Positions 86 to 42,963 of a stretch of DNA of 44,883 bases are shown one piece after another. The notes beneath the pieces are model-generated. The model made no database searches and had not been told where the DNA came from. It saw only the letters and a list, made by a program, of their open reading frames with translations. Source of the DNA: a phage; the NCBI GenBank assembly GCA_030395855.1, contig GCA_030395855.1_4325.1. The stretch is one strand, 5' to 3'. The translations under genes were made by a program, and so were the position numbers. Positions within the stretch are counted from its first letter, which is position 1. Each line of letters begins with the position of its first letter.

Positions 86-689
86 TGGTAACCTAATTAA
101 CGTAGATTGGTTCCAGCGCCTTAGTGATGCATTCAGGCCTCCAGCTAAGTATGATTACAGATTCATCACATGCGATACTGCGATGACCACAAAGAGTTAT
201 AGTGACTTCTCTGTACTTCAGTTGTGGGGATATAAAGATGCTAAGATTTACCTGATAGACCAGCGGCGTGGTAAATGGGAAGCGCCGGAGTTGGAAGCTG
301 AACTACTGGACTTCGAGAAGAAATCAAGGGCAACAAGTCAGACAGATGGCATCCTCCGAAAGATTATCATCGAGAAGAAAGCCTCTGGTATCGGCCTGAT
401 TCAATCGGCAGGTAGAGTTATGCGAACACCGATAGAGCCTTACGTGCCGGATAACGACAAGCTAACCAGGGTGATGAGCGCGTTGCCACAGATTAAGGCT
501 GGTAACGTCGTTCTTCCAGAGTCAGCGCCGTGGCTAAGCGGATTACTTACGGAGATTGCGGCTTTTACGGCAGACGACTCGCATAAGCATGATGACCAAA
601 TTGACTGCCTAACAATGGCGGTAAACCTTGTTCTAAATATCGCAGATGATCCTAAGGCCCGACTAATGCGCATAGCGGGAATTAAATAG
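1..689 (+). CDS. terminase large subunit, C-terminal part (continues the ORF starting at 43922 across the window junction)
   Basis: Reading frame is continuous from 43922..44798 into 3..689 (about 521 aa total); lies directly after the small terminase gene; stop TAG at 687-689. Confidence 0.8.
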   Translation, partial: SVSDLVAMWDSDPYTFLSQYQQEPVALGGNLINVDWFQRLSDAFRPPAKYDYRFITCDTAMTTKSYSDFSVLQLWGYKDAKIYLIDQRRGKWEAPELEAELLDFEKKSRATSQTDGILRKIIIEKKASGIGLIQSAGRVMRTPIEPYVPDNDKLTRVMSALPQIKAGNVVLPESAPWLSGLLTEIAAFTADDSHKHDDQIDCLTMAVNLVLNIADDPKARLMRIAGIK

Positions 690-729
690 CACGAATTGCC
701 AAACACTTAGGCCACGGATGGCGTATAGT
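687..729 (+). promoter_or_regulatory. conserved promoter/operator-like element copy (TAGCA-N5-TGCCA, 22-nt spacer, TATAGT)
   Basis: tagcacgaattgcca at 687-701, TATAGT at 724-729; upstream gene stop TAG lies inside the element. Confidence 0.6.
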
Positions 730-759
730 TACTTCACACAAACGAGAGGAGTTAAACAA

Positions 760-8534: not shown

Positions 8535-8539
8535 TTGCA

Positions 8540-8582
8540 TAGCACTTTTTGCTAAAGCACTTATACAATCTTACTGTATAGT
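8540..8582 (+). promoter_or_regulatory. conserved promoter/operator-like element copy
   Basis: tagcactttttgcta at 8540-8554, 22-nt spacer, TATAGT at 8577-8582, leader CATCGAAACGAA. Confidence 0.6.
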
Positions 8583-8615
8583 TCATTCATCGAAACGAAA
8601 TGAGGGAATTAAGAA

Positions 8616-9453: not shown

Positions 9454-12435
9454 ATGGCAACAAATGAATTAGCCGGAATCACACTAGCCGTAGACGTATT
9501 TCAAGTAGACAGGGGTACGCAATCCCTACAAAAGTTTAGGCAGGCAAACCAGCAAGCCGCTTCCGGCATTGGTGAATTCGTCAATGCAGAGCAGGTTGCA
9601 AAGACTCAGGCCAGGGACACAGCTCGTGCACTGGCTGAGCAGCAAGCATCTTTTGCCAAATTGCAAACAGCTATTGATCCAACTGCAGCAAAGTTCCGTA
9701 AGCTCCAGGAGGCTGCTGTAGGCTTGGACAAGGCTTTCGCGGCTGGCGTAGTTCCTGATGAGGAGTTTTTCCGATTAGGTGAGGCGCTTGAAACGCAAAA
9801 CGCAAAACTTGCTCGTTCACGCGCGGCTCTAACTGAAGAGGGAAGAGCGGCGGCGCAGGCTGCAAAGGATAAGGCAAAAGCGAAGGCTGAAGCTGACAGG
9901 TTCATTGCGTCACTTGAGCGACAGGCTCAAGCGGCAACATTGACGCGTGAGGAGTACTTAAAATTACAGGCTGCCCAGCTTGGCGTGAGTTCTCAGGCAG
10001 CGCCTATTATTGACAGAATCGCCGATGCATCACAGAAGGCAAACACCCAGCTAATTGCTCAGAGCAAGGCCTTTCAACGCTCTGGCTTAAGCGCAGGTCA
10101 ATACAAGGCTGCAATCTCTCAATTGCCAGCGCAGATTACAGATATTGGGACATCACTTGCTGGCGGCATTCCGATTTGGCTTATTGCAATTCAGCAAGGC
10201 GGACAAATTAAGGATGCATTTGGAGGTATTGGTAACACCTTTAGATTCGCGCTCGCAGCCTTAAATCCATTCAATGTTGCTGTTGGCGTTTTGGGTGGGG
10301 CACTTGTTGCTCTCGGTATCGGTGCTGCTCAGGCAGAGAGTGAATTCAGAGCATTAAACTCTGCAATAGCTTTTTCCAATAACTCAACAATCGCATCAAT
10401 CTCGCAGGTTAGAGAGTTGGTTAGCTCTGTTTCTGATGCTACTGGTGCAACCAGAGGACTTGTGACTAGCATCGCAACAAGCCTTATTGAGCAAGGGAAC
10501 CTTACTCTGACGCAGATTGACAAGATTACCAAATCAACCGCCAGATGGGCGCAGTTGACAGGTAAGGATGCTAGGGAGATTACTGGTTACTATAACCAGA
10601 TTGCAAGTGACCCAATCCATGGTTTAGTTGATTTGGATAAGCGCTTTAACTTCCTAACGCAGGGGCAGTTGACAACAATCGAAAACCTGAGAAAGACAAG
10701 GGGAGAAGTTGAGGCAGTTACTGCCGCGATTGATATTTTCAGCAAGTCACAGGAGGCCAACATTAACGACATTGCAGCACAGTTAACTCCACTTGAGTTA
10801 GCCTGGAATGATTTCAGAAAGTACACCTCTGATATCTGGGATGCAATTAGTCGTAGAACGGTTGGGGCGCTTAACCTGTTTGTTGACGTAATCGCCGGAA
10901 CAATTGAGCAGATCAGGGTATTCATTAACCAGGGCGACGCTCTGATTGGTGAATTTGTAATTAGCGCAACTCAGGCATTGCAGAACATCCCAGGCCTTGA
11001 TGGTGTCGGTGATGATGTAATCAAGAGTCAGCAGAAGATTATCGATGCCGCCAAGAGGCAAAACCTTGAGTTGGAAAAGTCTATCAAGGAGCGCGATGCC
11101 AGAATCAGAGACGGAGAGCTTGGTTACGTTACTCGCAGGGAAAATCAGAATACCAACGAGCAATCAGGCACGGATGAGGAGTTTGCAAAAAGGAAGAAGG
11201 CGCTTCAGGATGAACTTGATGCGATCAAGAAGAACAGGAAAGAAGAAAATGGTAGGGTTAAAGAGCAAAGAGACCTTACAATTGGTTACGAATCTGGCGT
11301 GCTGGCACTTCAGGCTCAACTCAAGGTTCTTCAGGAAAATAGGGATATTGGCGCAGTAATAAGTAATGAGCGAAAGCAGTATCTTCAGGAGGTTGCCAAA
11401 TTCCAGATTCTTGAGCAAAGACAAAGTGATGGCTCAATAAAAAAAGAGCAGGCAAGACTTCTAATTGAAAAGGATAAAGTTCTTGAGCTAGCTAGACAGA
11501 AGGCTGAGCTAGGCGACCAGATTGTTTTGCAGGAGAGAGCTAATAAGTTGGCTGAAGATAACCGCAAGAAGATTCTTCAGATTAACAATGAGGCAAGCAA
11601 TATTAATTTGGGGTCTGGATTATCATCTCGCGAGCAGCAAAGAGCTAAGGAGATTCAGGCACTCAAATCCAATCAGGTTAATGCTGGCGGTGCGATTGAT
11701 GACGTTGATTTTCAACAGCTACTGGAGGCAAGACGTAACTTTTATGCTCAGGAGGATGCGCTACGTGAAAACTGGCTCGCTGGTGTGAATCAATCCTTTG
11801 CAAATTGGGCTGAGAGCGCGACGGATGCATTCTCAATTGCTGGAAGTTTAACCACAACAGTCTTTGAGGGAATTACTGACCAGATCACTAACCTTGTAAC
11901 AACTGGCGAAACAAACTTCAGAGAGTTTACGGTTAGCATTCTTAAGCAGATTGCTAAGATTGCAACTCAGCTTCTTGTTGTCAAGGCTATCGAGTCTAGC
12001 TTGAGTAGCTTTGGTGGCACTGGTGGCGCTATTGGTTCTATAGCATCCGCGATTGGCGGCGGATTCGCTAGTGGTGGCTACACTGGTGATGGCGGGAAGT
12101 ATCAGCCAGCAGGAACGGTACACCGAGGTGAGTTTGTGTTCACAAAAGAAGCGACTAGCAGAATTGGTGTTAAGAACCTTTACGCACTAATGAAGGGTTA
12201 TGCGAATGGCGGCGCTGTAGGTGGTCCATCTGGTTATGCTAATGGCGGCTTGGTTTCTGGTGGTACAGATGTTAATGTTAGCGGCATCACTGTTAACGTA
12301 AACTCCGGTGTAGGTAGCGACCCAGAGCAAGCTAAGGCATTGCAAAGTGGTGTCAAGGCTATCGTAGCGGAAGAGATTGCGCAGTCTTTCCAGCAGGGCG
12401 GCAGGGCGTATCAGTACCTGCGCGGATTCAACTAA
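9454..12435 (+). CDS. tail tape measure protein
   Basis: 993-aa ORF, RBS GGAGG; Ala/Gln-rich helical N-terminus, Gly-rich C-terminal region; follows the G/GT chaperone. Confidence 0.85.
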   Translation: MATNELAGITLAVDVFQVDRGTQSLQKFRQANQQAASGIGEFVNAEQVAKTQARDTARALAEQQASFAKLQTAIDPTAAKFRKLQEAAVGLDKAFAAGVVPDEEFFRLGEALETQNAKLARSRAALTEEGRAAAQAAKDKAKAKAEADRFIASLERQAQAATLTREEYLKLQAAQLGVSSQAAPIIDRIADASQKANTQLIAQSKAFQRSGLSAGQYKAAISQLPAQITDIGTSLAGGIPIWLIAIQQGGQIKDAFGGIGNTFRFALAALNPFNVAVGVLGGALVALGIGAAQAESEFRALNSAIAFSNNSTIASISQVRELVSSVSDATGATRGLVTSIATSLIEQGNLTLTQIDKITKSTARWAQLTGKDAREITGYYNQIASDPIHGLVDLDKRFNFLTQGQLTTIENLRKTRGEVEAVTAAIDIFSKSQEANINDIAAQLTPLELAWNDFRKYTSDIWDAISRRTVGALNLFVDVIAGTIEQIRVFINQGDALIGEFVISATQALQNIPGLDGVGDDVIKSQQKIIDAAKRQNLELEKSIKERDARIRDGELGYVTRRENQNTNEQSGTDEEFAKRKKALQDELDAIKKNRKEENGRVKEQRDLTIGYESGVLALQAQLKVLQENRDIGAVISNERKQYLQEVAKFQILEQRQSDGSIKKEQARLLIEKDKVLELARQKAELGDQIVLQERANKLAEDNRKKILQINNEASNINLGSGLSSREQQRAKEIQALKSNQVNAGGAIDDVDFQQLLEARRNFYAQEDALRENWLAGVNQSFANWAESATDAFSIAGSLTTTVFEGITDQITNLVTTGETNFREFTVSILKQIAKIATQLLVVKAIESSLSSFGGTGGAIGSIASAIGGGFASGGYTGDGGKYQPAGTVHRGEFVFTKEATSRIGVKNLYALMKGYANGGAVGGPSGYANGGLVSGGTDVNVSGITVNVNSGVGSDPEQAKALQSGVKAIVAEEIAQSFQQGGRAYQYLRGFN

Positions 12436-18434: not shown

Positions 18435-19394
18435 GTAGAAGTTTGGGATAAATGGAAGTGCCATTGATATGTTCGTGTCGAAAGGAAACTGAGCGCCTGT
18501 CTGAGTTGAGTAGTTACCTATTACAGATCCAGGAACAGCCCTAACGGAGCCTCCAGACATGCAAACACCCTTGTATCGTAAGTTGTTATACCCTCCGGTA
18601 ACTCTAGTCGTAGCGCCGCACCTAAGCAGCGGGAAGAAACCACCATTTATTGACTGATATCCATTGCTTATTTGTATAAATCCACCAAGAACGAATGGGC
18701 GGCGAACACTTGAAAAAACAATCTGACCAGAACTATTTGACATTGTGAGTCCGGGTCCAGCTGGTGGTGGTTCATTCCTGAATATCACCAATTGAACGTA
18801 AGTACTTGCCGCAACATCATCTGTACCTCCGTAGGTTATATCCCTACACCATATTGTTGATCCATCTGATTCAAGTGATACGTTTGGATTATCCCACTTG
18901 CCGAATGGTATTCCGCTAACTGGTAGCGATGCTGCACCGTTAACCTGTATACCCCCAACCCATGCTGCTGACATTAGTCTCGAGTTGCTTGATATAGCAA
19001 GGAAATCAGTTGAGTTCTCAACAAGTATTCCAGGACTTGATGAGGATGAAGCCGGTAGTATCTCAAAGCAATTCCCTGCAAAGTCAATTATTCGACCATT
19101 AGCACCGTTAAAGTTACTAAGCGTTATCCTTCCAACTCCGTCATTAACCTTTTGGAATCCATTCATATAATAAACTTCAGGTATAACATCGTAAGCATCA
19201 ACGTGAACAGCCTTTATTGGTAGACAGAAGGCCGTAGAACCAGGTGACATTGTCAATCCAAAATCCCACGAACTTGCAGGAGTTGAAAGTCCATTGGTAT
19301 TTATTGAGCCAGTCACGGCTGGTGCCCTTAATCCTGCCGTTATTTCCATCGCTGGTCTTCCGTCATTGAGGTCAATCAATATACCCTGCGGCAT
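18432..19394 (-). CDS. hypothetical Gly/Ser/Asn-rich protein (320 aa), co-transcribed with upstream lipoprotein gene
   Basis: RBS AAGGAG before ATG at 19394; TAATG stop/start overlap with the lipoprotein gene. Confidence 0.6.
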   Translation of the reverse strand: MPQGILIDLNDGRPAMEITAGLRAPAVTGSINTNGLSTPASSWDFGLTMSPGSTAFCLPIKAVHVDAYDVIPEVYYMNGFQKVNDGVGRITLSNFNGANGRIIDFAGNCFEILPASSSSSPGILVENSTDFLAISSNSRLMSAAWVGGIQVNGAASLPVSGIPFGKWDNPNVSLESDGSTIWCRDITYGGTDDVAASTYVQLVIFRNEPPPAGPGLTMSNSSGQIVFSSVRRPFVLGGFIQISNGYQSINGGFFPLLRCGATTRVTGGYNNLRYKGVCMSGGSVRAVPGSVIGNYSTQTGAQFPFDTNISMALPFIPNFY

Positions 19395-19639
19395 TATTTC
19401 CACTCCTTGCTGCCATGATCTGCAATGGAGCCACCGTAACCGCCGCCAGCTTTGCTTTCAATGCCAGCGTAGCGAATATCAACCTCACCAGCCGGAACAA
19501 CTACGCCACCCTTCCATTTAGCTACGCACACACCAATTGCTTGCGTTGCACACCAACCATCCGGGCGAGGACCGGAAGAACAACCAACTGTCATGATTAC
19601 TGCTGCGGCGATGATTGCTGATTTGATTAGGTTAGTCAT
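19394..19639 (-). CDS. small lipoprotein (82 aa), candidate Cor-like superinfection exclusion protein
   Basis: N-terminal signal peptide ending in lipobox MTVGC; RBS GAGGAA; conserved promoter element upstream on minus strand. Confidence 0.55.
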
Positions 19640-19678
19640 TTTGTATTCCTCATTAAGTTGTTTCGTTTCGATGGAGTA

Positions 19679-19722
19679 ACTATACACGCAACCAGCGTTG
19701 GAGTCTTTAGCTATTTGTGCTA
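19679..19722 (-). promoter_or_regulatory. conserved promoter/operator-like element copy (minus strand)
   Basis: Minus strand reads tagcacaaatagcta, 23-nt spacer, TATAGT, then CCATCGAAACGAA leader. Confidence 0.55.
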
Positions 19723-19818
19723 TTGCATACGCGTAACCGATGTAACTCGATGTATACAATCTCATCCGCGGGAAATGATATACGATCTGTTACGCCAATT
19801 TACGCATTAGTTACATTA

Positions 19819-21347: not shown

Positions 21348-21348
21348 A

Positions 21349-21391
21349 TAGCACGAATCGCTAAAGACAAAATTAAAAGGTGGGGTATGAT
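21349..21391 (+). promoter_or_regulatory. conserved promoter/operator-like element copy
   Basis: tagcacgaatcgcta at 21349-21363, 22-nt spacer, TATGAT at 21386-21391 within the GGGGTA/TACCCC inverted repeat. Confidence 0.6.
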
Positions 21392-21420
21392 TACCCCATC
21401 AACAACGAACGAGGTTAAAG

Positions 21421-22071
21421 ATGCAAATTTCAGAATCATGCAAATCAATTTTAAACGCACTACACACTGCTAAATCGCTATTTGCGAAGGCTGAAAAGTC
21501 GAAGCAGAACTCGCACCTCAAGAACAAATACGCCACCCTAGAAGACGTTTTGGCGGCGGTTGAACCAGGACTTGATGAGTGTGGGTTGGTGATGTTCCAG
21601 AGCGTGCTTGATGACGAGCAAACGAATCGTATGAAGGTTGAGACAAAGCTGTTTCACGCAGAATCTGGAGAGTGGGTTAGCTTCTTGATGATCGTACCAA
21701 TCAGCAAGCAAGACGCTCAAGGTTACGGCTCAGCCTTAACATACGCTCGTCGCTACGGAATCACGGCGGCATTAGGACTTAGCCAGGCAGATGATGACGG
21801 CAATCTCGCAGCGAAGGGTGTTAAGGATTTCAAGCGAGAACTCGAGAAATGCAATACTCTTGATGAACTTCGTAATGTTTGGAAAGAAGCCAAACAGTCA
21901 CTTGATGCGGCAGGATGGAAGGTCTTTGAGCCTCATATTATCGAGCGCAAAGCAGAGATTGAAGCAAATGCAATGACTGGCTTCAACCCAGCAACACCAA
22001 AGAAAGTTGCAGAAAAAAGTAGTCCTGAAGAAAAGATTGAAGTAGAATCACAACAAATCGACACATTCTAA
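21421..22071 (+). CDS. Erf-family single-strand annealing recombinase
   Basis: Motifs NKYATLEDV and ALTYARRYGI resemble the Erf family; position between exonuclease and SSB. Confidence 0.65.
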   Translation: MQISESCKSILNALHTAKSLFAKAEKSKQNSHLKNKYATLEDVLAAVEPGLDECGLVMFQSVLDDEQTNRMKVETKLFHAESGEWVSFLMIVPISKQDAQGYGSALTYARRYGITAALGLSQADDDGNLAAKGVKDFKRELEKCNTLDELRNVWKEAKQSLDAAGWKVFEPHIIERKAEIEANAMTGFNPATPKKVAEKSSPEEKIEVESQQIDTF

Positions 22072-25154: not shown

Positions 25155-25178
25155 TGTGTAGAGTCTCCATTTGTAAAA

Positions 25179-25193
25179 TAGCACGAATTGCTA
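25179..25193. promoter_or_regulatory. palindromic operator-like site (TAGCACGAATTGCTA) without the usual -10/leader, just upstream of tailspike start
   Basis: Exact copy of the palindrome 25 nt upstream of the tailspike ATG, adjacent to the minus-strand terminator. Confidence 0.5.
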
Positions 25194-25218
25194 AAGTGGA
25201 TTGTAGCATCTTTATGAC

Positions 25219-26168: not shown

Positions 26169-26193
26169 AGTTACCTCCATAAACAATAAAGGC

Positions 26194-26236
26194 ACTATAC
26201 ACAATGTATAGCGCCACTGTTTATCAATTCGTGCTA
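26194..26236 (-). promoter_or_regulatory. conserved promoter/operator-like element copy (minus strand) driving primase
   Basis: Minus strand reads tagcacgaattgata, 22-nt spacer, TATAGT. Confidence 0.55.
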
Positions 26237-26716
26237 TTTCCCTTGCTCTTTAGCTTTTCGTGCTGCCTCGTTAGCGGCCTTAATCTTGCGCCATGATCGA
26301 CACTCTGGCTTGGTGGCTAATTCAGCCTCAGTAACAACACGCAGCATGTGACGCTTTTTGCAACGCAGAGTTAGCGGCTTCCCGTTACCGTCGAATTGCA
26401 AATCTGGTCGGCAGAATGTAGCGCGAAAACCCTCCCCAGTTCGTTTGTAGTAGTTGTGCGACAACTGAGCACCTCGCGCAGAAATCATACCGCGCTTAAA
26501 CCATTCCTCTACAGCCTGTGGTGTTACCTTTAATTGCTTTGCCATATTTGCCTTTGTGCCGAAGAAATCAAGAACTATCTCCAGGCGTGCCCGTAACCCG
26601 GCTCTTACTTCATCTTTTAAAACGTAGTAGCCTGAAGGTCGTTTTCGCTGCTTTTTATCTTCAGTGCGGATGGTTCCGTTATTGCCGTTAATGGTTCTCT
26701 TGTCGACTGTATTCAT
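26234..26716 (-). CDS. HTH DNA-binding protein (Cro/YdaS-like putative transcriptional regulator)
   Basis: Segment MAKQLKVTPQAVEEWFKRG resembles a helix-turn-helix; basic termini; RBS GAGGT; divergent from helicase gene. Confidence 0.55.
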   Translation of the reverse strand: MNTVDKRTINGNNGTIRTEDKKQRKRPSGYYVLKDEVRAGLRARLEIVLDFFGTKANMAKQLKVTPQAVEEWFKRGMISARGAQLSHNYYKRTGEGFRATFCRPDLQFDGNGKPLTLRCKKRHMLRVVTEAELATKPECRSWRKIKAANEAARKAKEQGK

Positions 26717-26817
26717 CTTATTACCTCGATAGCATTTTTTGTTAAAAGTCATCCTGATTTGATGGTAATATTGTACTCAATTAAACGCTACAAGACAATT
26801 TTTATAGGAATTTAGAT

Positions 26818-28812: not shown

Positions 28813-29228
28813 ACATTACAGACAAAGTTGATTACATTGAGTTTTACTCTGGACCTGTTAAGTCGTGTCCGAAAGAGGATGACGAACAAATCTTTTGCTC
28901 TGATTGGGTTAAGTATAACTATCCAGATATGGTATTTTTCCACTGCGTAAATGAGGGTAAGAAAACCATTGGTCAAGCAAGGAAGGACCAGGCTAAAGGA
29001 TTGCTCAAAGGGGTCTCGGACTGTTTATTCCTGATACCTGAATCGCTTAGAGGCAGTTATCCATTTGGAGCCATAGAGCTAAAGAGGGCAGGAAAAACTC
29101 AGGCTAGCCCGGTCAGCGATGAGCAGAGGTCCTTCCTTAAAAGCGTAAGGGAATCAGGAGGTTTCGCCGCCGTGGCCTACGGACGCGAGGGCTTTCTAGC
29201 AGCATTCAAAGAAATGATTTCAAAATAG
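28809..29228 (+). CDS. VRR-NUC domain nuclease
   Basis: DCLFL...GAIELK...SDEQ segment resembling the VRR-NUC PD-(D/E)XK core; ATGA overlap with helicase stop. Confidence 0.6.
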   Translation: MNITDKVDYIEFYSGPVKSCPKEDDEQIFCSDWVKYNYPDMVFFHCVNEGKKTIGQARKDQAKGLLKGVSDCLFLIPESLRGSYPFGAIELKRAGKTQASPVSDEQRSFLKSVRESGGFAAVAYGREGFLAAFKEMISK

Positions 29229-29268
29229 CACGAATTGCTAAAGACGATTTTAAAAGATGGGGTATAGT
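29226..29268 (+). promoter_or_regulatory. conserved promoter/operator-like element copy (canonical)
   Basis: tagcacgaattgcta 29226-29240, 22-nt spacer, TATAGT 29263-29268, leader CCATCGAAATGAA, then RBS and ATG 29305. Confidence 0.65.
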
Positions 29269-29304
29269 TACTCCATCGAAATGAAACAAAGAGAGAGAAA
29301 CAAA

Positions 29305-29517
29305 ATGGCTACTATCTACACCACTAAGAAATACATTTCACGTAAAACTGGTTATGAGTATGAATTAGTAATCACCGCTGATGGTTATGTTCTTGATGAT
29401 GGTGAAGGTTATGCTTTCGAAGTTAGCCCAACTTACAAGGATGATTTAGAAACTGTTAAAAACGAATTTGGCGAAAAATTTGATGAGGTATCAGACAATG
29501 GCAATTTTTACATTTGA
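29305..29517 (+). CDS. hypothetical protein (70 aa)
   Basis: RBS AGAGAGAGA before ATG 29305; downstream of the conserved element. Confidence 0.5.
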   Translation: MATIYTTKKYISRKTGYEYELVITADGYVLDDGEGYAFEVSPTYKDDLETVKNEFGEKFDEVSDNGNFYI

Positions 29518-31557: not shown

Positions 31558-31558
31558 A

Positions 31559-31601
31559 TAGCACTTTTTGCCTAAAACATGCCGTAGAAATGCGGCATAA
31601 T
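31559..31601 (+). promoter_or_regulatory. conserved promoter/operator-like element copy
   Basis: tagcactttttgcct, 22-nt spacer, CATAAT, leader AAATCGAAACGAG. Confidence 0.55.
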
Positions 31602-31631
31602 CACCAAATCGAAACGAGATGAGGAATTGTA

Positions 31632-32105
31632 ATGATTTACGTATTTGATATCGATGGAACTATAGCTAATAATGAGCATAGAAGTCACCTCTTGCCATCC
31701 AGCGACCTTCACTTGACTTCAAGTTGGAAGGATTACAATAAAGCCTGTTCTGGAGACTCACCAATAATCCCAATGATAAAAATGATGAATGCTTTAGCTG
31801 AGTCATCTCAAGTTTACATAATGACCTCAAGAAGTGATGAAGTTGAATTGAGAACCCTTGAGTGGCTTCAGGATAATGAGATTGAGTGTGATTCGATATA
31901 CATGAGAAGTAGACATGACAACCGAAAAGATTACAAAATAAAAGAGCAATGGCTTAATGAAATCAGTGGTGGCGATAAAGGCAATGTGGTTATTTTTGAA
32001 GATAACCCAAAAGTAATTAAGCACCTAAGAAGTCGCGGATACACAGTTATGGCTGTATGTGAATATGAAGAACTACCTAAAGATTGCGAATCTCACGGAG
32101 AATGA
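31632..32105 (+). CDS. HAD-superfamily phosphatase (polynucleotide 3-phosphatase-like)
   Basis: N-terminal FDIDGT motif (HAD motif I); 157 aa. Confidence 0.6.
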   Translation: MIYVFDIDGTIANNEHRSHLLPSSDLHLTSSWKDYNKACSGDSPIIPMIKMMNALAESSQVYIMTSRSDEVELRTLEWLQDNEIECDSIYMRSRHDNRKDYKIKEQWLNEISGGDKGNVVIFEDNPKVIKHLRSRGYTVMAVCEYEELPKDCESHGE

Positions 32106-32107
32106 AA

Positions 32108-32662
32108 ATGACTAAATTATTTATCCTTAACGGACCGGCTGGAGTTGGCAAGGACACTATCGCAGATATTATGCTCGAGTTGGGTGTTGTTGATGGGAAA
32201 GTTTCATTCAAGTCACCAATGTTCGATGTAGCCAGGGGGATGCTATCAAAGGGTGAATTTGATTGGTTTATTGAGAACTACAACAACCGAGACGAGAAAG
32301 AAAAGCATCAAGAGATACTTGGCGGTAAAAGCATTCGAGAATTCATGATTTGGATTAGCGAGTCTGTAATGAAGCCAGTCTTTGGTGATGATGTCTTCGG
32401 TAAAAGGCTCGCCCAGTCACTTGGTGATGGTTGCTACATTTGCGCTGACGGTGGATTTACTAGCGAGATTAAGACACTGGTCGACGCTGGTGTTGAGGTC
32501 ACGTTAATTAGATTGCATAGGGAAGGGTACACATTTGATGGCGATAGTCGCTCATACATTCACGGGGTGTGCGCAAGAGAAATTGATGTTCGTGTTGTTG
32601 ATTGTGATATTAATGAAACATCAGCATTGGTAAGGCACGTAATAAATAGCACGAATTTCTAA
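32108..32662 (+). CDS. P-loop kinase, dNMP-kinase-like (paralog 1)
   Basis: Walker A GPAGVGKDT near N-terminus; about 45 percent identical by eye to the ORF at 39543..40160. Confidence 0.6.
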   Translation: MTKLFILNGPAGVGKDTIADIMLELGVVDGKVSFKSPMFDVARGMLSKGEFDWFIENYNNRDEKEKHQEILGGKSIREFMIWISESVMKPVFGDDVFGKRLAQSLGDGCYICADGGFTSEIKTLVDAGVEVTLIRLHREGYTFDGDSRSYIHGVCAREIDVRVVDCDINETSALVRHVINSTNF

Positions 32663-32688
32663 AACACAAATCAAAAGATGGGGTATAT
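32646..32688 (+). promoter_or_regulatory. conserved promoter/operator-like element copy
   Basis: tagcacgaatttcta, 22-nt spacer, TATATT; the element encodes the last codons and stop of the kinase gene. Confidence 0.6.
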
Positions 32689-32721
32689 TTACTCCATCGA
32701 AACAAACGAGAGTATACAAAT

Positions 32722-32907
32722 ATGGCTAAGTTCAAACAATCAGATGCACAGATCGAAGTTAAAAACGTTGGCCTTGGTAATACATTTAAGATTGCCCAGG
32801 CGTATGGTTCTAGCGAAGAAGGTGTGAAAGTTGACACCATTAACCTTACTGCTAAAAACGCGCGTGAAATTGCTAACGCAATCCTTTCGGTACTTGGAGA
32901 AAAATAA
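32722..32907 (+). CDS. hypothetical protein (61 aa)
   Basis: Downstream of the conserved element; ATG 32722. Confidence 0.5.
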   Translation: MAKFKQSDAQIEVKNVGLGNTFKIAQAYGSSEEGVKVDTINLTAKNAREIANAILSVLGEK

Positions 32908-36407: not shown

Positions 36408-36481
36408 TACTTCTCTCCGTATTGTTTCTAAGCGGCCATTATAACAACGACCGCTTATAATTCATTATCAATTTGTGCTTA

Positions 36482-36835: not shown

Positions 36836-36871
36836 TTTGATTGCCTTTGCATGTTTCGTTTCGATGAGATG

Positions 36872-36914
36872 AATATACAGGAAAAGCCCCGAAGGGCCTT
36901 AGCAATTCGTGCTA
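36872..36914 (-). promoter_or_regulatory. conserved promoter/operator-like element copy (minus strand)
   Basis: Minus strand reads tagcacgaattgcta, 22-nt spacer containing a gccc-cgaa-gggc hairpin, TATATT, leader CATCGAAACGAA. Confidence 0.55.
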
Positions 36915-37063
36915 TTACGTGCCTGTTCTATCGCCTTGAGCATAATTTCGTGACTTTCTAGCAAGTCCTCGCGAAACCAATCCCCGCATGGCCAACCCTT
37001 ACCGCTGTAAGCTGCAATGGTGCAAAGATCGTAATAGTTGATATCTGATGGCAATAGCATCAT
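36899..37063 (-). CDS. small hypothetical protein (54 aa)
   Basis: Not in ORF track; RBS GAGGTG; ATGA coupling to upstream gene; its stop TAA lies inside the conserved palindrome. Confidence 0.35.
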   Translation of the reverse strand: MMLLPSDINYYDLCTIAAYSGKGWPCGDWFREDLLESHEIMLKAIEQARNSTNC

Positions 37064-37488: not shown

Positions 37489-37515
37489 ATCTATACCCTC
37501 GTTGTTGATGAGCTA

Positions 37516-37559
37516 ACTATATCCTCACTAACTCCTAATGTCTTTAGCAAAAAGTGCTA
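37516..37559 (-). promoter_or_regulatory. conserved promoter/operator-like element copy (minus strand)
   Basis: Minus strand reads tagcactttttgcta, 23-nt spacer, TATAGT. Confidence 0.55.
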
Positions 37560-37845
37560 TTCGTTAGATTTATGGATTGATGCAGATATTGCAATGATTC
37601 ATATGATTATTGCACATACAGCAATATTGCTTCCGATGCAATGATGTTTTTGATTGTTGCGAAAAGTGAAATGAAGTGGGGAGTGAGTGAATGAAAGATT
37701 GATGGACTACCATACAAGTTGATTTTTACCAATCTATGGGAGCCTCACGGATATACGCGTATCCTCCGTATACTCATTGTCGTCACAAAAGTTAGTGACC
37801 ACTAACCTACGTTTTTACGCGATATATACACACGATATACAATAT

Positions 37846-38738: not shown

Positions 38739-38826
38739 TAGACTACCATACCACTTGAGGTACAGTGAGGAGGTTGAGTCGGCAATTGAGTTCTGCCGGA
38801 AAGCTAAATCACTCCTGAGTGGTGAA

Positions 38827-38869
38827 TAGCACGAATTGCTAAACAATAAATCGGGTAGTCGGTTATGAT
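38827..38869 (+). promoter_or_regulatory. conserved promoter/operator-like element copy
   Basis: tagcacgaattgcta, 22-nt spacer, TATGAT, leader CCCCATCGACAACGAA. Confidence 0.6.
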
Positions 38870-38893
38870 TACCCCATCGACAACGAAGAGGAA

Positions 38894-39100
38894 ATGAAGA
38901 TGATGGCTGTAATTATCGAAGATTTCGTAGGTGACAGCACTGAGGTGTCGGCTTCAGTATATTACGACGGAATAGTGAGCATTGACATTGACACGGATAA
39001 CTTAGGTGATGAATGCACGCTAGCTCACTATACACCAGAGGCAGCGCGCAAACTTGCGGCGGCATTAATCCTGGCGGCGGACGAGGCGGATAAGCAATGA
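38894..39100 (+). CDS. hypothetical acidic protein (about 66-68 aa)
   Basis: Several in-frame ATGs at 38894-38905 after RBS GAAGAGG. Confidence 0.45.
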   Translation: MKMMAVIIEDFVGDSTEVSASVYYDGIVSIDIDTDNLGDECTLAHYTPEAARKLAAALILAADEADKQ

Positions 39101-39360
39101 AACGTTTAATGACATGCATGACCATTATTGCGGCAATGATTGCTCTTACTGGTTGCGAGAAGGCACCAGAGGTTCAGATTCAGTCAGGTGAATTCAATGT
39201 GGAGCGTCTATTCACAGTGGATGGATGTACCGCCTACAGATTCCGAGATAGCGATAGAGCCATCTACTACACAAATTGCCATGGCAGTACGCAGAGTGAG
39301 TACAGGTCCGGCAAGGTCATGAAGAAAGAAACAGTTCAGACAGATCGCACGAATTGGTAA
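39097..39360 (+). CDS. putative lipoprotein (87 aa)
   Basis: Signal peptide MKRLMTCMTIIAAMIALTGC with lipobox LTGC; ATGA overlap with upstream gene. Confidence 0.55.
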   Translation: MKRLMTCMTIIAAMIALTGCEKAPEVQIQSGEFNVERLFTVDGCTAYRFRDSDRAIYYTNCHGSTQSEYRSGKVMKKETVQTDRTNW

Positions 39361-39542
39361 AAGGGGGTTCATCATGACTGGTATAATCCCCAGCATCAAC
39401 CACATGAATGGAAGTTAAGTGACGATATACGAACATAAATTCAGTAGCAGGGGTATTGATATGCTCCTGCACTATATAGACGAAAAATACTCAAAGCTCA
39501 TGCTTAAGACGCATGGCGGCACAATAACGAGGATTAACATAA

Positions 39543-40160
39543 ATGGCTAAAATCATCATTCTCAACGGTCCGGCTTCGGTTGGCAAAGACACTATCGGTA
39601 ACGCGCTTGCTAAAGATTACAATTGCATCCCGACGAGCTTTAAGATTCCTATGTTTGAGATCGCAGCGTCAATCCTGGGCGCTCGGGCGTTCAGCAAATT
39701 CATCACCGCTTATGATGATCGAGATCAGAAAGAGATGCCTCATGATTTTCTCGGTGGGAAAACCTGCCGTGAGTTCATGATCTGGATTAGCGAGTCGGTG
39801 GTCAAGCCGCTATTTGGCAATCAGCAGTTCGGTAAGCTGACGAGCGAGCGCATCCAGCTTTGTGACGAGGGATTTAGCTTTGTTTGCACTGATGGCGGTT
39901 TTCCTGATGAGGTTATCCGTCTGGTGGAAGACGGCCACTATGTTACCGTTGTGCGCCTATTTATGGATGGCAAGACCTTCGATGGAGATAGTCGTGATTA
40001 TATCCGCATCAAGGAATCGCATTTCCCTGATTATAAGCAATATAACGAGCATGACGTGCATCTGTTGAATGGTGATATTGACGGCGGCGTCATGGCAGTG
40101 GTTCGCGCCTGCGGTATCCGTCCTGCAATCGACGAGTGGGCCGACAATATTCCCTGGTAA
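39543..40160 (+). CDS. P-loop kinase, dNMP-kinase-like (paralog 2)
   Basis: Walker A GPASVGKDT; shared FMIWISESV and TFDGDSR blocks with the ORF at 32108..32662. Confidence 0.6.
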   Translation: MAKIIILNGPASVGKDTIGNALAKDYNCIPTSFKIPMFEIAASILGARAFSKFITAYDDRDQKEMPHDFLGGKTCREFMIWISESVVKPLFGNQQFGKLTSERIQLCDEGFSFVCTDGGFPDEVIRLVEDGHYVTVVRLFMDGKTFDGDSRDYIRIKESHFPDYKQYNEHDVHLLNGDIDGGVMAVVRACGIRPAIDEWADNIPW

Positions 40161-40161
40161 A

Positions 40162-40204
40162 TAGCACGAATTGCCAAACCCGCTCCGGCGGGTTTTGTTA
40201 TAGT
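40162..40204 (+). promoter_or_regulatory. conserved promoter/operator-like element copy with terminator hairpin in its spacer
   Basis: tagcacgaattgcca, spacer containing cccgc-tccg-gcggg + TTTTGTT, TATAGT at 40199-40204. Confidence 0.6.
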
Positions 40205-40232
40205 TAGTTAACACCAAACGAGAGGAAAGAAA

Positions 40233-40552: not shown

Positions 40553-40686
40553 TTTACATCCACACATACTACACTGGCAAGTTTAATAGCGTTAAGCACG
40601 CCATTGTTCACGATAGCTACGATAGCGCAAAGGCTCAATGGTTGGTTCTTGGCGGCGATATTAATTCATATAGAATCGCTAAATAG
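40549..40686 (+). CDS. small hypothetical protein (45 aa)
   Basis: Not in ORF track; ATGA coupling; stop TAG embedded in the next conserved element. Confidence 0.3.
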   Translation: MIYIHTYYTGKFNSVKHAIVHDSYDSAKAQWLVLGGDINSYRIAK

Positions 40687-40727
40687 CACGAATTGCTAAA
40701 ACAGTATTGGGGGTAATTTGTTATAGT
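40684..40727 (+). promoter_or_regulatory. conserved promoter/operator-like element copy
   Basis: tagcacgaattgcta, 23-nt spacer, TATAGT inside a GGGGGTAA/TTACCCC inverted repeat, leader CCCCATCGAAACGAA. Confidence 0.6.
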
Positions 40728-40757
40728 TACCCCATCGAAACGAACCAGGAATAAGAA

Positions 40758-40970
40758 ATGAAAATTGAAATTATCGACGTAGACTATGTTGCTGATGGCA
40801 ACACGCTTACCCTGGAAGAATGCGGATTTAAGGTTGGCGATGTGGTCGAGGTGTGCGGCGAATGCAATAATGGCGACTTGTCGATTCAGGCAATCCGTGA
40901 GACTAGGTTCGTCAATATCGGCAATGAAGTAAGTATCAGTGAGCATGAATACAAGGTGGTGGAAGAATGA
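40758..40970 (+). CDS. hypothetical protein (70 aa, Cys-x-x-Cys pair)
   Basis: RBS AGGAA before ATG 40758; CGEC motif. Confidence 0.5.
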   Translation: MKIEIIDVDYVADGNTLTLEECGFKVGDVVEVCGECNNGDLSIQAIRETRFVNIGNEVSISEHEYKVVEE

Positions 40971-41633: not shown

Positions 41634-41763
41634 ATATGTAATAGCGTGCGAGAGACTCGTCTTCGATATGAAGACTTTCCACTGGTTCATCATTAAGGAT
41701 TTAGTTAAGCCTTATAAGAAAGGCGTTGCGCCAGAGGCTTTTGTTAAGTCATTCTATAAATAG
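41620..41763 (+). CDS. small hypothetical protein (47 aa)
   Basis: RBS GAGGTGG before ATG 41620; stop TAG embedded in the next conserved element. Confidence 0.35.
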   Translation: MRLTEYVIACERLVFDMKTFHWFIIKDLVKPYKKGVAPEAFVKSFYK

Positions 41764-41803
41764 CACGAATTGCTAAATGCAGTCGCCACGGATGGCATAT
41801 AAT
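41761..41803 (+). promoter_or_regulatory. conserved promoter/operator-like element copy
   Basis: tagcacgaattgcta, 22-nt spacer, TATAAT. Confidence 0.6.
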
Positions 41804-41833
41804 TACCACATCAACACAACGAGAGATTGAGAT

Positions 41834-41947: not shown

Positions 41948-42187
41948 ATGTTCGGACTAAATGAAGCGATGTTAAACGCAGTCAAGGGTCAGGCCAAAAA
42001 ACTAAACGATAAGTATGAGTCACTAGGTAAGCTGGACCGCAAGAATGACAAGTTGGTTGCTGGAGTTATCACTGAGATTTGGGAGCCTGTTTCTACAGTG
42101 ATTAGCAGGGATCGATTTGTTTGGGTGGCTGGTTATTTGCGAGGCCTGGTTGGTCATGACGAGAATGGGAATAGCCTTTATGAGTGA
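41948..42187 (+). CDS. hypothetical protein (79 aa)
   Basis: RBS GAGGG before ATG 41948. Confidence 0.5.
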   Translation: MFGLNEAMLNAVKGQAKKLNDKYESLGKLDRKNDKLVAGVITEIWEPVSTVISRDRFVWVAGYLRGLVGHDENGNSLYE

Positions 42188-42900: not shown

Positions 42901-42925
42901 AGCCCTCGCTTGAGGGCTTTTTTTC
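42901..42925 (+). terminator. intrinsic terminator
   Basis: Hairpin agccctc-gcttg-agggct followed by T7. Confidence 0.75.
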
Positions 42926-42934
42926 GTAAGCATG

Positions 42935-42963
42935 TTGACAATAATATATAGGTGCATTAGTAT
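42935..42963 (+). promoter_or_regulatory. sigma70-like promoter (consensus -35)
   Basis: TTGACA (42935-42940), 17-nt spacer, TAGTAT (42958-42963). Confidence 0.55.

What the first reader, a model, noticed from the sequence alone, without database searches (positions are those of the whole stretch)
29221..29307. Genome-wide conserved promoter/operator-like element (15 copies) with non-sigma70 geometry
An imperfect palindrome TAGCA-N5-TGCTA (consensus AATAGCACGAATTGCTAAA) recurs at 687, 8540, 19708(-), 21349, 25179, 26222(-), 29226, 31559, 32646, 36900(-), 37545(-), 38827, 40162, 40684 and 41761. In 14 copies it is followed by a spacer of fixed length (22-23 nt) but variable sequence, then a TATAGT/TATGAT/TATAAT hexamer, often inside a GGGGTA...TACCCC inverted repeat, then a conserved leader CATCGAAACGAA, RBS and ATG. 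Fixed length with free spacer sequence is promoter-like, but TTGCTA to -10 spacing of 22 nt does not fit sigma70 (17 nt). If the -10 is real, the palindrome centre lies near -42, the position used by class II activators. The simplest reading is a phage-specific promoter class served by a dimeric regulator, phage- or host-encoded. The copy before the tailspike (25179) has the palindrome only. In about half the copies the stop codon of the upstream gene lies inside the element.
Basis: seen in the sequence. Interest (0 to 1): 0.8.

Follow-up and report, generated by a model that had tools for sequence, protein, structure and literature searches.

The report
Phage promoters built on host marboxes
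The repeated element is the main promoter type of this T1-like coliphage, and its upstream half is a near-perfect copy of the DNA site bound by the host stress regulators MarA, SoxS and Rob, placed as in host promoters that these proteins switch on; so the phage probably borrows a host activator to express its genes.

Summary
All 15 listed copies exist, and I found 3 more (26729+, 39344+, 36481-). The window is a Rtp-like phage of the family Drexlerviridae.

The repeat itself is already published. Phage TLS (PMC11447400, 2024) has 18 copies of aaATAGCACnnnTTGnTAAAA about 76 nt upstream of start codons. That paper left its function open.

What I add:
- **The element is a consensus marbox.** It matches the published MarA/SoxS/Rob patterns with 0-2 mismatches.
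- **It scores like the best host sites.** A weight matrix built only from 73 Salmonella ChIP-seq sites gives the phage copies 16.3-17.1 of 17.8 bits. Host sites have a median of 10.4 bits. The 11 best hits in the window are all repeat copies, against 0.02 expected by chance.
- **The geometry is that of a class II marbox promoter.** The site faces forward, no -35 is present, and 18 bp separate it from a TATAGT-like -10. E. coli micF has the same 18 bp. Across the family, 409 of 458 copies have exactly 18 bp.
- **A start site is implied.** C at -1 and A at +1 are conserved.

The conserved positions are not two-fold symmetric, so a dimer on a palindrome is not required.

The phage encodes no MarA-like protein. 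It does encode a conserved Cro-type regulator, which is the main rival. Binding and transcript starts are untested.

The parts
29225..29244 (+). Focal copy: 20-bp marbox ATAGCACGAATTGCTAAAGA in forward orientation, spanning -50..-31. The stop codon TAG of the upstream VRR-NUC gene lies at 29226-29228.
   Evidence: (17.0 bits).
29245..29262 (+). Focal copy: 18-bp spacer of free sequence. Its 3' part, GATGGGGTA, can pair with TACTCCATC on the other side of the -10.
   Evidence: MFE -13.0, z -4.8.
29263..29268 (+). Focal copy: -10 hexamer TATAGT.
29275..29307 (+). Focal copy: predicted +1 (A at 29275), conserved leader ATCGAAATGAA, a purine-rich ribosome-binding site, and ATG at 29305-29307.
   Evidence: A at +1 in 50/57, C at -1 in 38/57. 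The start site is inferred, not measured.
686..736 (+). Promoter copy (marbox 686-705, -10 at 724-729) upstream of a virion structural protein gene (ATG 760). The TAG stop of the large terminase gene lies inside the marbox.
8539..8589 (+). Promoter copy after the major tail protein gene (marbox 8539-8558, -10 at 8577-8582).
   Evidence: (17.1 bits).
19672..19723 (-). Promoter copy with a 19-bp spacer, upstream of a small lipoprotein-like gene (19639..19394).
21348..21398 (+). Promoter copy upstream of the Erf-like annealing protein gene (21421..22071).
25178..25197 (+). Orphan marbox with no usable -10, between the tail fibre and primase genes and antisense to both. T1 has the same orphan at the same place (L004 34902).
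   Evidence: 17.0 bits.
26187..26237 (-). Promoter copy upstream of the primase gene. A second, weaker marbox-like site lies at 26249-26263 (-).
26729..26779 (+). Variant promoter copy (ATAGCATTTTTTGTTAAAAG) upstream of the helicase gene.
   Evidence: (14.7 bits).
31558..31608 (+). Promoter copy upstream of the polynucleotide kinase/phosphatase gene (31632..32105).
32646..32696 (+). Promoter copy upstream of a small gene (32722..32907).
36431..36481 (-). Degenerate copy (TAAGCACAAATTGATAATGA, then 18 bp, then TATAAT) upstream of a 527-aa DNA helicase gene.
   Evidence: (11.6 bits).
36865..36915 (-). Promoter copy with a GC stem-loop plus T-run (GGCCCTTCGGGGCTTTTCC) inside its spacer.
37509..37560 (-). 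Promoter copy with a 19-bp spacer.
   Evidence: (17.1 bits).
38826..38876 (+). Promoter copy upstream of a small early-region gene (38894..39100).
39344..39394 (+). Promoter copy (ATCGCACGAATTGGTAAAAG, then 18 bp, then TATAAT).
   Evidence: (14.0 bits).
40161..40211 (+). Promoter copy with a terminator-like stem-loop (40176-40195) in its spacer. The T-rich tail of that stem-loop includes the -10 TATAGT.
40683..40734 (+). Promoter copy with a 19-bp spacer, upstream of 40758..40970.
41760..41810 (+). Promoter copy with a TATAAT -10.

Best explanation
Each unit is a sigma-70-dependent promoter of the activator-dependent class II type.

**Layout.**
- -10 hexamer: TATAGT-like, at -12..-7.
- Predicted start: the conserved A seven bases downstream of the hexamer.
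- -35 hexamer: none recognisable.
- Marbox: a 20-bp asymmetric site, aAATAGCAC(GAA/TTT/AAA)TTGyTAAAa, at -50..-31, pointing towards the gene.

**Proposed mechanism.** A monomer of a host MarA/SoxS/Rob-family protein (RamA as well in Klebsiella and Salmonella) binds this site. One helix-turn-helix contacts GCAC and the other contacts the AAA seven bases further on. From there the protein recruits or holds RNA polymerase through contacts with sigma-70 region 4 and the alpha C-terminal domain, replacing -35 recognition. This is how it works at the host micF promoter. Rob is the likeliest default partner because it is made constitutively. MarA and SoxS would add activity in stressed cells.

**What the promoters drive.** They drive most early and replication genes and a few late units. 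Many also carry, in the spacer or around the -10, a hairpin that ends or marks the upstream transcript. Terminator and promoter are thus packed into about 50 bp.

**Shown.** The motif, its match to the marbox, its orientation, its spacing, the -10, the absence of a -35, and conservation across the family.

**Inferred.** The transcript start, which protein binds, and that binding activates.
For: **1. Match to published marbox patterns.**
- GCANNWWNTGNNAAA (PMC12052159) matches exactly 14 times, against 0.98 expected.
- AYNGCACNNWNNRYYAAAY fits every copy with 0-2 mismatches.

**2. Independent weight matrix.** I built it from 73 in vivo MarA/SoxS/Rob/RamA ChIP-seq sites in Salmonella (PMC10268841 Table 1).
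- Its consensus is GCACAAATTGCTAAA.
- Phage copies score 16.3-17.1 of 17.8 bits. Host sites have a median of 10.4 and a 90th percentile of 16.0.
- The top 11 hits in the whole window are all repeat copies.
- Chance expectation at 16.3 bits or more is 0.02.

**3. Geometry.**
- MG1655 micF, the class II prototype, reads ACAGCACTGAATGTCAAAAC, then 18 bp, then TAGAAT.
- The focal phage copy reads ATAGCACGAATTGCTAAAGA, then 18 bp, then TATAGT.
- In five genomes, 54 of 70 copies have 18 bp and 8 have 19.
- Across the family, 409 of 458 have 18 bp.
- The RamA site on micF is centred at about -41 (PMC8811837).

**4. Other class II features.**
- Class II marbox promoters are forward-oriented and lack a -35, with a mean of 1.9 matches (PMC10268841). 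The phage units are forward-oriented and read AAAgac at -35..-30.
- Canonical -35/-10 promoters are not enriched: 43 found against 41.8 expected.
- The TLS authors found only three sigma-70-like intergenic promoters.

**5. Asymmetry.** Nearly invariant positions break two-fold symmetry. This fits a monomer with two different reading heads.

**6. Conservation.** The motif is unchanged in T1, Klebsiella phage cp45 (genus Webervirus), Citrobacter phage HCF1 and TLS, whose helicases are only 44-55% identical to the window's. It is absent from the non-Drexlerviridae relatives Pu29 and 12E28.1.

**7. No phage homologue.** The phage encodes no detectable MarA or SoxS homologue.
Against: - There are no binding, footprint or transcript-start data for any Drexlerviridae promoter in the searchable literature.
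- In unstressed cells MarA and SoxS are scarce and Rob is largely held in aggregates (PMC10268841). T1-like phages nevertheless grow fast in ordinary broth (own knowledge).
- Classical T1-resistance genetics found only receptor and TonB mutants (own knowledge). Three redundant activators, or partial dependence, could hide such an effect.
- Records labelled Vibrio cholerae (Vc1) and Pseudomonas aeruginosa (Motto) keep the motif and its spacing. If those hosts are real and lack these proteins, a host reader is unlikely. Vc1's closest relative is a Salmonella phage at 89% identity, so the labels are doubtful.
- The phage encodes a conserved Cro-type HTH protein. It could read the TAGCA-N5-TGCTA core.
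- The weight matrix rests on sites I transcribed by hand from a partly displayed table.
Confidence: 0.58

Rival explanations
1. The reader is the phage's own Cro-type regulator (26234..26716, minus strand). A dimer would bind the imperfect palindrome TAGCA-N5-TGCTA centred at -42. It would either activate RNA polymerase through sigma-70 region 4, as lambda cI does from OR2 at PRM, or shut these promoters off later in infection. On this reading the marbox resemblance is coincidental or secondary.
For: - The protein is conserved in all subfamilies at 50-65% identity. It belongs to phrog_2856, 'transcriptional regulator'.
- The AlphaFold model is confident (pLDDT 88). Its core resembles all-alpha Cro proteins: Xfaso1 Cro and N15 Cro, TM about 0.7 normalised to the target.
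- The half-sites are 10 bp apart centre to centre. Four to five mirror pairs are complementary.
- The regulator gene appears to have its own sigma-70-like promoter, TTGTCT-17-TACAAT, rather than a marbox promoter. It could therefore be made first.
- The motif persists in records labelled with non-enteric hosts.
- Lambda cI at -42 is a precedent (own knowledge).
Against: - Nearly invariant positions break the symmetry: -44 C against -40 T, -50 A against -34 A, and -51 A against -33 A. The pair -47/-37 is only 60% complementary.
- A Cro-type site would have to match the host marbox matrix at all 15 positions by chance, about 2e-7 per site. It would also have to share micF's orientation and 18-bp spacing.
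- The Foldseek matches are weak by E-value (0.035 or worse) and cover only about 60 residues.
- A phage-encoded pair of protein and site would be expected to drift between subfamilies. The motif does not.
Confidence: 0.2
2. No protein factor is needed. The element would be an upstream promoter element read directly by RNA polymerase, either UP-element-like through the alpha subunit or through an unusual sigma contact. It would boost promoters that run on a good -10 and a G at -14.
For: - The TLS authors suggested UP-like or enhancer roles.
- The -10 hexamers are near consensus, and G at -14 occurs in 44 of 57 copies. Some basal activity is therefore plausible.
- The element ends in an A-tract.
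Against: - UP elements are A/T-rich from -59 to -38 (own knowledge). Here the invariant positions include G-47, C-46, C-44 and G-38.
- TTGCTA lies 22 nt from the -10, too far for a -35.
- This reading does not explain the exact marbox match.
Confidence: 0.08
3. The repeat is not a promoter part. It would be a roadblock or 'stoperator', or a boundary signal tied to the neighbouring terminator hairpins, or a site used in DNA replication or packaging.
For: - The TLS authors raised stoperators as a possibility.
- Orphan copies without a -10 exist. One is in the window at 25178. In T1 they lie directly in front of start codons at 8362 and 25021.
- Terminator-like hairpins follow many copies.
- T1's annotated terminators at 38973-39001, 39998-40024 and 41980-42007 lie just downstream of repeats.
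Against: - 70 of 80 copies carry a -10-like hexamer at 17-19 bp.
- They also carry a conserved C/A start dinucleotide and a conserved leader, and always point towards the next gene.
- Nothing in a stoperator or packaging role predicts this.
Confidence: 0.06

Closest known systems
Class II marbox promoters of the E. coli and Salmonella mar/sox/rob regulon (prototype micF; also lpxC P2, lpxL P1 and rfaY P1)
   Same: - Same asymmetric 20-bp site, with GCAC and AAA seven bases apart.
- Same forward orientation.
- Same overlap with the -35 position.
- Same 18 bp to a sigma-70 -10.
- No recognisable -35.
   Different: - Host sites are degenerate, with a median of 10.4 bits. The phage copies are near-optimal at 16-17 bits and almost identical to each other.
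- There are 18 copies in 45 kb, serving most transcription units of a virulent phage rather than a stress regulon.
- They carry a conserved leader and embedded hairpins that host promoters lack.
- Binding by MarA, SoxS or Rob is untested.
The 21-nt direct repeats of phage TLS (aaATAGCACnnnTTGnTAAAA; PMC11447400), also noted there for T1, Rtp and Rogue1
   Same: It is the same element: same sequence, intergenic position, co-orientation with genes, and about 70-80 nt to the start codon.
   Different: - That paper treated the repeats separately from promoters. It offered stoperator, enhancer-site or UP-element roles.
- It did not report the fixed 18-bp distance to a -10, the conserved start, or the marbox identity.
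Lambda cI at OR2 activating PRM (a Cro/cI-type dimer centred at -42)
   Same: An activator site centred near -42 replaces or assists -35 recognition. The phage encodes a Cro-type protein.
   Different: Lambda operators are two-fold symmetric and few in number. This motif is asymmetric at invariant positions and matches a host monomer's site.
Phage T4 middle promoters (MotA box plus sigma-70 -10, with AsiA)
   Same: A -10 recognised by host sigma-70 is combined with a conserved upstream box that replaces the -35. The arrangement is used many times across a virulent phage genome (own knowledge).
   Different: - The MotA box (TGCTTtA) sits at -30 and is read by phage-encoded MotA after AsiA remodels sigma (own knowledge).
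- Here the box is at -50..-31. No MotA or AsiA homologue was looked for or seen. The box is a host regulator's site.

Membership tests
Class II marbox (MarA/SoxS/Rob) promoter | An asymmetric 20-bp site matching AYnGCACnnWnnRYYAAAYn / GCAnnwwnTGnnAAA. | tested here: met
   - 0-2 mismatches in every copy.
- 14 exact matches against 0.98 expected.
- 16.3-17.1 of 17.8 bits on a matrix derived from ChIP-seq sites.
Class II marbox (MarA/SoxS/Rob) promoter | The marbox is in forward orientation relative to transcription. | tested here: met
   All copies with a -10 point towards the adjacent downstream gene. The direction of transcription is inferred from the -10 and the gene, not measured.
Class II marbox (MarA/SoxS/Rob) promoter | The site overlaps the -35 position, is centred near -41, and lies 18-19 bp from the -10 hexamer. 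| tested here: met
   - micF measured at 18 bp.
- Phage copies: 18 bp in 54 of 70 and 19 bp in 8; 409 of 458 at 18 bp family-wide.
- Class II position ranges are given in PMC12052159 and PMC10268841.
Class II marbox (MarA/SoxS/Rob) promoter | A sigma-70 -10 is present and no recognisable -35 hexamer. | tested here: met
   TATaAT is conserved, with A at -11 and T at -7 in 57 of 57 copies. Positions -35..-30 read AAAac.. The copies were selected for a -10-like hexamer, so the -10 figures are partly circular.
Class II marbox (MarA/SoxS/Rob) promoter | The site is bound by MarA, SoxS or Rob. | not testable with these tools
   Needs a gel-shift assay, footprinting or ChIP. No such data were found.
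Class II marbox (MarA/SoxS/Rob) promoter | Transcription depends on the activator and starts about 7 nt after the -10. | not testable with these tools
   No transcript-start or reporter data for Drexlerviridae were found in the library.
T1-like (TLS) 21-nt direct repeat | Consensus aaATAGCACnnnTTGnTAAAA, intergenic, co-directional with genes, about 76 nt upstream of start codons. | tested here: met
   The sequence is identical to TLS DR2, DR5 and others. The distance from the G of GCAC to the start codon is 65-86 nt in most copies.
Operator for a dimeric Cro/cI-type HTH protein | The conserved positions show two-fold symmetry. | tested here: not met
   Four to five mirror pairs are complementary. 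The nearly invariant pairs -44/-40, -50/-34 and -51/-33 are not.
Operator for a dimeric Cro/cI-type HTH protein | A cognate phage-encoded HTH protein exists. | tested here: met
   - 26234..26716 (-) gives a sub-threshold P22_Cro match in Pfam.
- Its fold resembles Cro proteins.
- It is conserved across the family.
- Binding to this element is untested.
UP element | An A/T-rich sequence from -59 to -38 with A-tract and T-tract subsites. | tested here: not met
   G or C is invariant at -47, -46, -44 and -38. There is no conservation upstream of -52. The UP consensus is taken from own knowledge.
Sigma-54 promoter (TGGCAC-N5-TTGCW) | A GG and GC pair 11 nt apart, 12 nt upstream of the start. | tested here: not met
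   The sequence reads TAGCAC-N3-TTGCT: AG instead of GG, and two bases too short. The sigma-54 consensus is taken from own knowledge.

The most novel reading that the evidence does not exclude
A whole family of virulent enterobacterial phages, the T1-like Drexlerviridae, has handed most of its promoter recognition to the host's MarA/SoxS/Rob stress regulators. Phage gene expression, and so the speed and yield of infection, would then follow the host's antibiotic, oxidative and bile-salt stress state. About 18-23 near-optimal sites per genome copy could also draw these regulators away from host defence genes during infection. For TLS, whose receptor TolC is itself induced by the same regulators, cells in the drug-tolerant state would be both easier to enter and better at expressing the phage.
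Probability: 0.35. Interest if true: 0.85.

Novelty: new member of a known kind. Interest (0 to 1): 0.62.

Why it matters
**An open question becomes testable.** T1 is one of the seven classic T phages, yet how it and its relatives are transcribed has stayed open. The latest re-annotation of TLS found only three sigma-70-like promoters and could not assign a function to the repeats. Reading the repeats as class II marbox promoters gives a complete promoter map. The window has 17 such units, each with a predicted start site. It also names three well-studied host proteins as candidates.

**The tests are simple.**
- Gel shifts with existing purified proteins.
- Reporter fusions in existing marA soxS rob mutants.
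- One-step growth curves with and without salicylate, paraquat or dipyridyl.

**If confirmed.**
- It would be a clear case of a virulent phage depending on a host stress-response activator for general transcription.
- It would link the antibiotic-tolerance state of enteric bacteria to susceptibility to a very common phage family. That matters for combining phage therapy with antibiotics.
- It would supply a set of compact, strong, MarA/SoxS/Rob-responsive promoter-terminator modules for engineering.

Tried and rejected
**Other promoter types, compared from memory and dropped.**
- Sigma-54: AG instead of GG, and the spacing is 2 nt short.
- Sigma-32: CCCCAT is present, but no CTTGAA lies at the right distance.
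- Sigma-28: rejected.
- T4 MotA box: wrong position.
- UP element: the motif has invariant G and C positions.

**Search for a phage MarA-like protein.** tblastn with MarA and SoxS found nothing below E = 0.4. Pfam on the two proposed HTH proteins gave Cro-like and exonuclease. PHROGs agreed.

**A single conserved hairpin around the -10.** A covariation count at a fixed register did not exceed shuffles, so I dropped that idea. What stands is hairpin potential that varies in position:
- mean MFE of -10.5 kcal/mol, against -4.9 for random 36-mers from the same genomes;
- 62% of copies at -10 kcal/mol or lower, against 6.8% of random 36-mers;
- p = 4e-74.

**Literature.**
- No paper links the marbox to T1-like phages.
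- Only the TLS paper prints the motif.
- No transcript-start data exist for Drexlerviridae.
- The T1 and Rtp genome papers are not held.
- A figure of 'phage-specific promoters' for the Rtp-like phage IMM-001 exists only as an image.

**Other attempts.**
- The PDB sequence search with the regulator found nothing.
Every contig listed was Drexlerviridae-sized, so it could not show whether unrelated phages use the same design.
- Host labels of Vc1 and Motto: I tried to assess them through nearest relatives. The result is only suggestive.
Full report
**1. What the window is**

Megablast places the window in the Rtp-like coliphages. The best match is vB_EcoS_FP at 93% identity. ACG-M12, a close relative, is classified Drexlerviridae; Braunvirinae.

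**2. Checking the observation**

- TAGCA-N5-TGCTA with up to 1 mismatch occurs 19 times, against 1.8 expected. None of 100 shuffles reached 19.
- Aligning the copies gives one architecture: aaATAGCAC(GAA/TTT/AAA)TTGcTAAAgac, about 18 nt of free sequence, TATAGTTACyCCATCGAAACGA, a ribosome-binding site, then ATG.
- All 15 listed copies are real.
- Three more fit: 26729+ (helicase), 39344+ and a degenerate one at 36481-.
- The copy at 25178 has no usable -10.
- Stop codons of upstream genes lie in or against the element in about half the copies (ORF ends).

**3. It is already described as a repeat**

The 2024 re-annotation of phage TLS reports a 21-nt direct repeat, aaATAGCACnnnTTGnTAAAA.
- Eighteen copies are intergenic, co-directional with the genes and about 76 nt upstream of start codons.
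- The authors note similar repeats in T1, Rtp and Rogue1 as unpublished observations.
- They found only three sigma-70-like intergenic promoters.
- They suggested stoperators, enhancer-binding sites or UP-like elements (PMC11447400). The copies are listed in their Table S1.
- No other paper in the library prints the motif.

**4. What it is: a consensus marbox**

The motif fits the binding site of the monomeric AraC-family activators MarA, SoxS and Rob at every specified position.

Published definitions:
- GCAnnwwnTGnnAAA, with class II defined as forward orientation overlapping the -35 (PMC12052159).
- CAC(G/T), seven bases, then AAA, with the RamA site at about -41 on micF (PMC8811837).

Results in the window:
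- GCANNWWNTGNNAAA matches exactly 14 times, against 0.98 expected.
- AYNGCACNNWNNRYYAAAY fits all copies with 0-2 mismatches.

Independent test. [quoted passage not shown] The sites were transcribed from Table 1 of PMC10268841 as shown.
- The matrix consensus is GCACAAATTGCTAAA, with a maximum of 17.8 bits.
- Real host sites score a median of 10.4 bits (leave-one-out), a 90th percentile of 16.0 and a maximum of 17.3.
- The phage copies score 16.3-17.1.
- The 11 best hits on both strands of the whole window are all repeat copies.
- The chance expectation for 16.3 bits or more is 0.02 in the window and about 2 in a 4.6-Mb genome.

**5. Geometry**

| Promoter | Marbox | Spacer | -10 | Source |
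|---|---|---|---|---|
| E. coli MG1655 micF | ACAGCACTGAATGTCAAAAC | 18 bp | TAGAAT, then 7 nt to the annotated micF 5' end | |
| Phage focal copy | ATAGCACGAATTGCTAAAGA (29225-29244) | 18 bp | TATAGT (29263-29268) | |

- In five genomes, 70 of 80 copies have a -10-like hexamer. Of these, 54 lie at 18 bp, 8 at 19 bp and 5 at 17 bp.
- Over 130 loci of the family, 409 of 458 copies have exactly 18 bp.
- Column statistics for 57 copies show no conservation upstream of -52 and AAAac at the -35 position.
- G occupies -14 in 44 of 57 copies, C occupies -1 in 38 and A occupies +1 in 50. The leader ATCGAAAC follows. The conserved C/A pair is where a sigma-70 promoter would start.
- Class II marbox promoters in Salmonella likewise lack a -35, with a mean of 1.9 matches. 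Cryo-EM structures of micF complexes show sigma region 4 displaced (PMC10268841).
- Canonical -35/-10 pairs are not enriched in the window: 43 found against 41.8 expected.

**6. Palindrome or asymmetric site?**

The mirror pairs -45/-39, -46/-38, -48/-36 and -49/-35 are complementary. Other pairs are not:
- -44 (C in 53 of 57) faces -40 (T in 56 of 57).
- -50 (A in 54) faces -34 (A in 57).
- -51 (A in 44) faces -33 (A in 53).
- -47 (G in 56) faces -37 (C 34, T 17).

The host marbox consensus contains the same GCA-N5-TGC pseudo-palindrome. The symmetric core therefore does not separate the two readings. The asymmetric invariant positions do, and they favour the marbox.

One caveat applies. The positions used to collect the copies are inflated in these counts. 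The positions outside the search pattern (-51, -43..-41, -37 and -32) also follow the marbox.

**7. Distribution**

Present, with the same motif and spacing:
- T1: 23 copies.
- Klebsiella phage cp45 (genus Webervirus): 17 copies.
- Phage Msk.
- Citrobacter phage HCF1: 4 copies in 21 kb.
- TLS.

Their helicases are only 44-55% identical to the window's.

Absent:
- Salmonella phage Pu29 (genus Skatevirus) and Vibrio phage 12E28.1. Both share the helicase but are not Drexlerviridae.

**8. Which genes are served**

- Served: primase, helicase, Erf-like recombinase, polynucleotide kinase, a second helicase, a small lipoprotein-like gene and many small genes of the early regions.
- Only two copies lie in the structural module, at 686 and 8539.

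**9. Who reads it**

- Its one clear HTH protein (26234..26716, minus strand) is Cro-like:
  - a sub-threshold P22_Cro match in Pfam;
  - phrog_2856;
  - an AlphaFold model at pLDDT 88;
  - best PDB fold matches to all-alpha Cro proteins, with TM about 0.7 normalised to the target and weak E-values.
- It is conserved at 50-65% identity across subfamilies and seems to have its own sigma-70-like promoter.
- A Cro/cI-type dimer at -42 has a precedent in lambda cI at PRM (own knowledge). It is the main rival.
- Against it stand the asymmetry, the full match to the host matrix, and the micF-like orientation and spacing.

I therefore put about 0.58 on host MarA/SoxS/Rob-type activation and 0.2 on the phage regulator. 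The rest goes to factor-independent or non-promoter roles.

**10. Evidence that cuts the other way**

- MarA and SoxS are scarce in unstressed cells, and Rob is largely aggregated. These phages nevertheless grow well in broth (own knowledge).
- Records labelled Vibrio cholerae (Vc1) and Pseudomonas aeruginosa (Motto) keep the motif. However, Vc1's nearest relative is a Salmonella phage at 89% identity, and the three labelled hosts in that small clade disagree.
- No binding or transcript-start data exist.

**11. The embedded hairpins**

- The 36 nt from -32 to +4 fold far better than random 36-mers from the same genomes. The mean MFE is -10.5 against -4.9 kcal/mol.
- 62% reach -10 kcal/mol or lower, against 6.8% of random 36-mers (p = 4e-74, 320 unique copies).
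- In 75 copies a GC stem-loop sits in the spacer and abuts the -10, whose T-rich sequence then forms the terminator tail.
- T1's annotated terminators at 38973-39001, 39998-40024 and 41980-42007 are exactly such cases. So are window 40176-40195 and TLS DR12/T62.
- In 154 copies the arms flank the -10, for example GAUGGGGUA-UAGU-UACUCCAUC at the focal copy. Nothing U-rich follows these hairpins.
- A fixed-register covariation test was negative. The selection is therefore for some hairpin, not for one particular structure.
- The function of the flanking type is unexplained.

**12. Verdict**

As a repeat it is already in the literature.
The 'dimer on a palindrome' and 'phage-specific' parts are not supported.
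- The best-supported reading is a family-wide set of class II marbox promoters. I could not find this reading in the searchable literature, and it is directly testable.

Noticed in passing
window 29250-29278; also 21375-21401 and 32671-32699; family-wide in loci L004-L129: The promoter spacer and -10 region (-32..+4) has strong hairpin potential. 62% of 320 unique copies reach -10 kcal/mol or lower, against 6.8% of random 36-mers. In about half the copies the arms flank the -10 hexamer, and nothing U-rich follows. The arm sequences differ between copies, but no single register is conserved. Function unknown.
   Followed up: partly
window 40176-40204 and 36872-36895 (-); T1 L004 38973-39001, 39998-40024 and 41980-42007: Intrinsic-terminator stem-loops sit inside the 18-bp promoter spacer. 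The T-rich -10 region serves as the terminator tail. The end of one transcription unit and the start of the next therefore share about 50 bp. T1's annotated terminators coincide with these spacers.
   Followed up: partly
window 25178-25197 (+); T1 L004 34902 (+): An orphan, near-optimal marbox (17.0 bits) has no -10. It lies between the tail fibre and primase genes, antisense to both and a few bases upstream of the tail fibre start codon. T1 has one at the same place. T1 also has copies directly in front of start codons (8362 and 25021) and reversed copies in the late region (15086- and 18850-).
   Followed up: no
window 26717-26817: The regulator and helicase genes are divergent. The marbox promoter of the helicase has its -10 at 26767-26772. 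A sigma-70-like promoter for the Cro-like regulator runs on the other strand (TTGTCT 26798-26793, TACAAT 26775-26770). The two -10 elements overlap, and the marbox lies inside the predicted 5' leader of the regulator transcript. This looks like a possible switch.
   Followed up: no
window 42901-42963: This is the best canonical sigma-70 promoter in the right half of the window: TTGACA-17-TAGTAT at 42935-42963, just after a terminator at 42901-42918. It may be a factor-independent early promoter.
   Followed up: no
window 26249-26263 (-), 9646-9660 (+), 3739-3753 (+) and 3940-3954 (+): Further marbox-like sites score 13-15 bits. One lies 29 nt upstream of the primase marbox, inside the end of the regulator gene. 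The others lie inside structural genes with no -10 at 18 bp.
   Followed up: no
phage records MG065688, PP134917, NC_054898 and ON843697: Drexlerviridae records carry the host labels Campylobacter jejuni, Pseudomonas syringae, Pseudomonas aeruginosa and Vibrio cholerae. PsgS01F has the same record length and the same match statistics as an E. coli phage. Vc1's nearest relative is a Salmonella phage. These host labels look unreliable.
   Followed up: partly
Its GerE match is sub-threshold (E = 0.079).
   Followed up: yes
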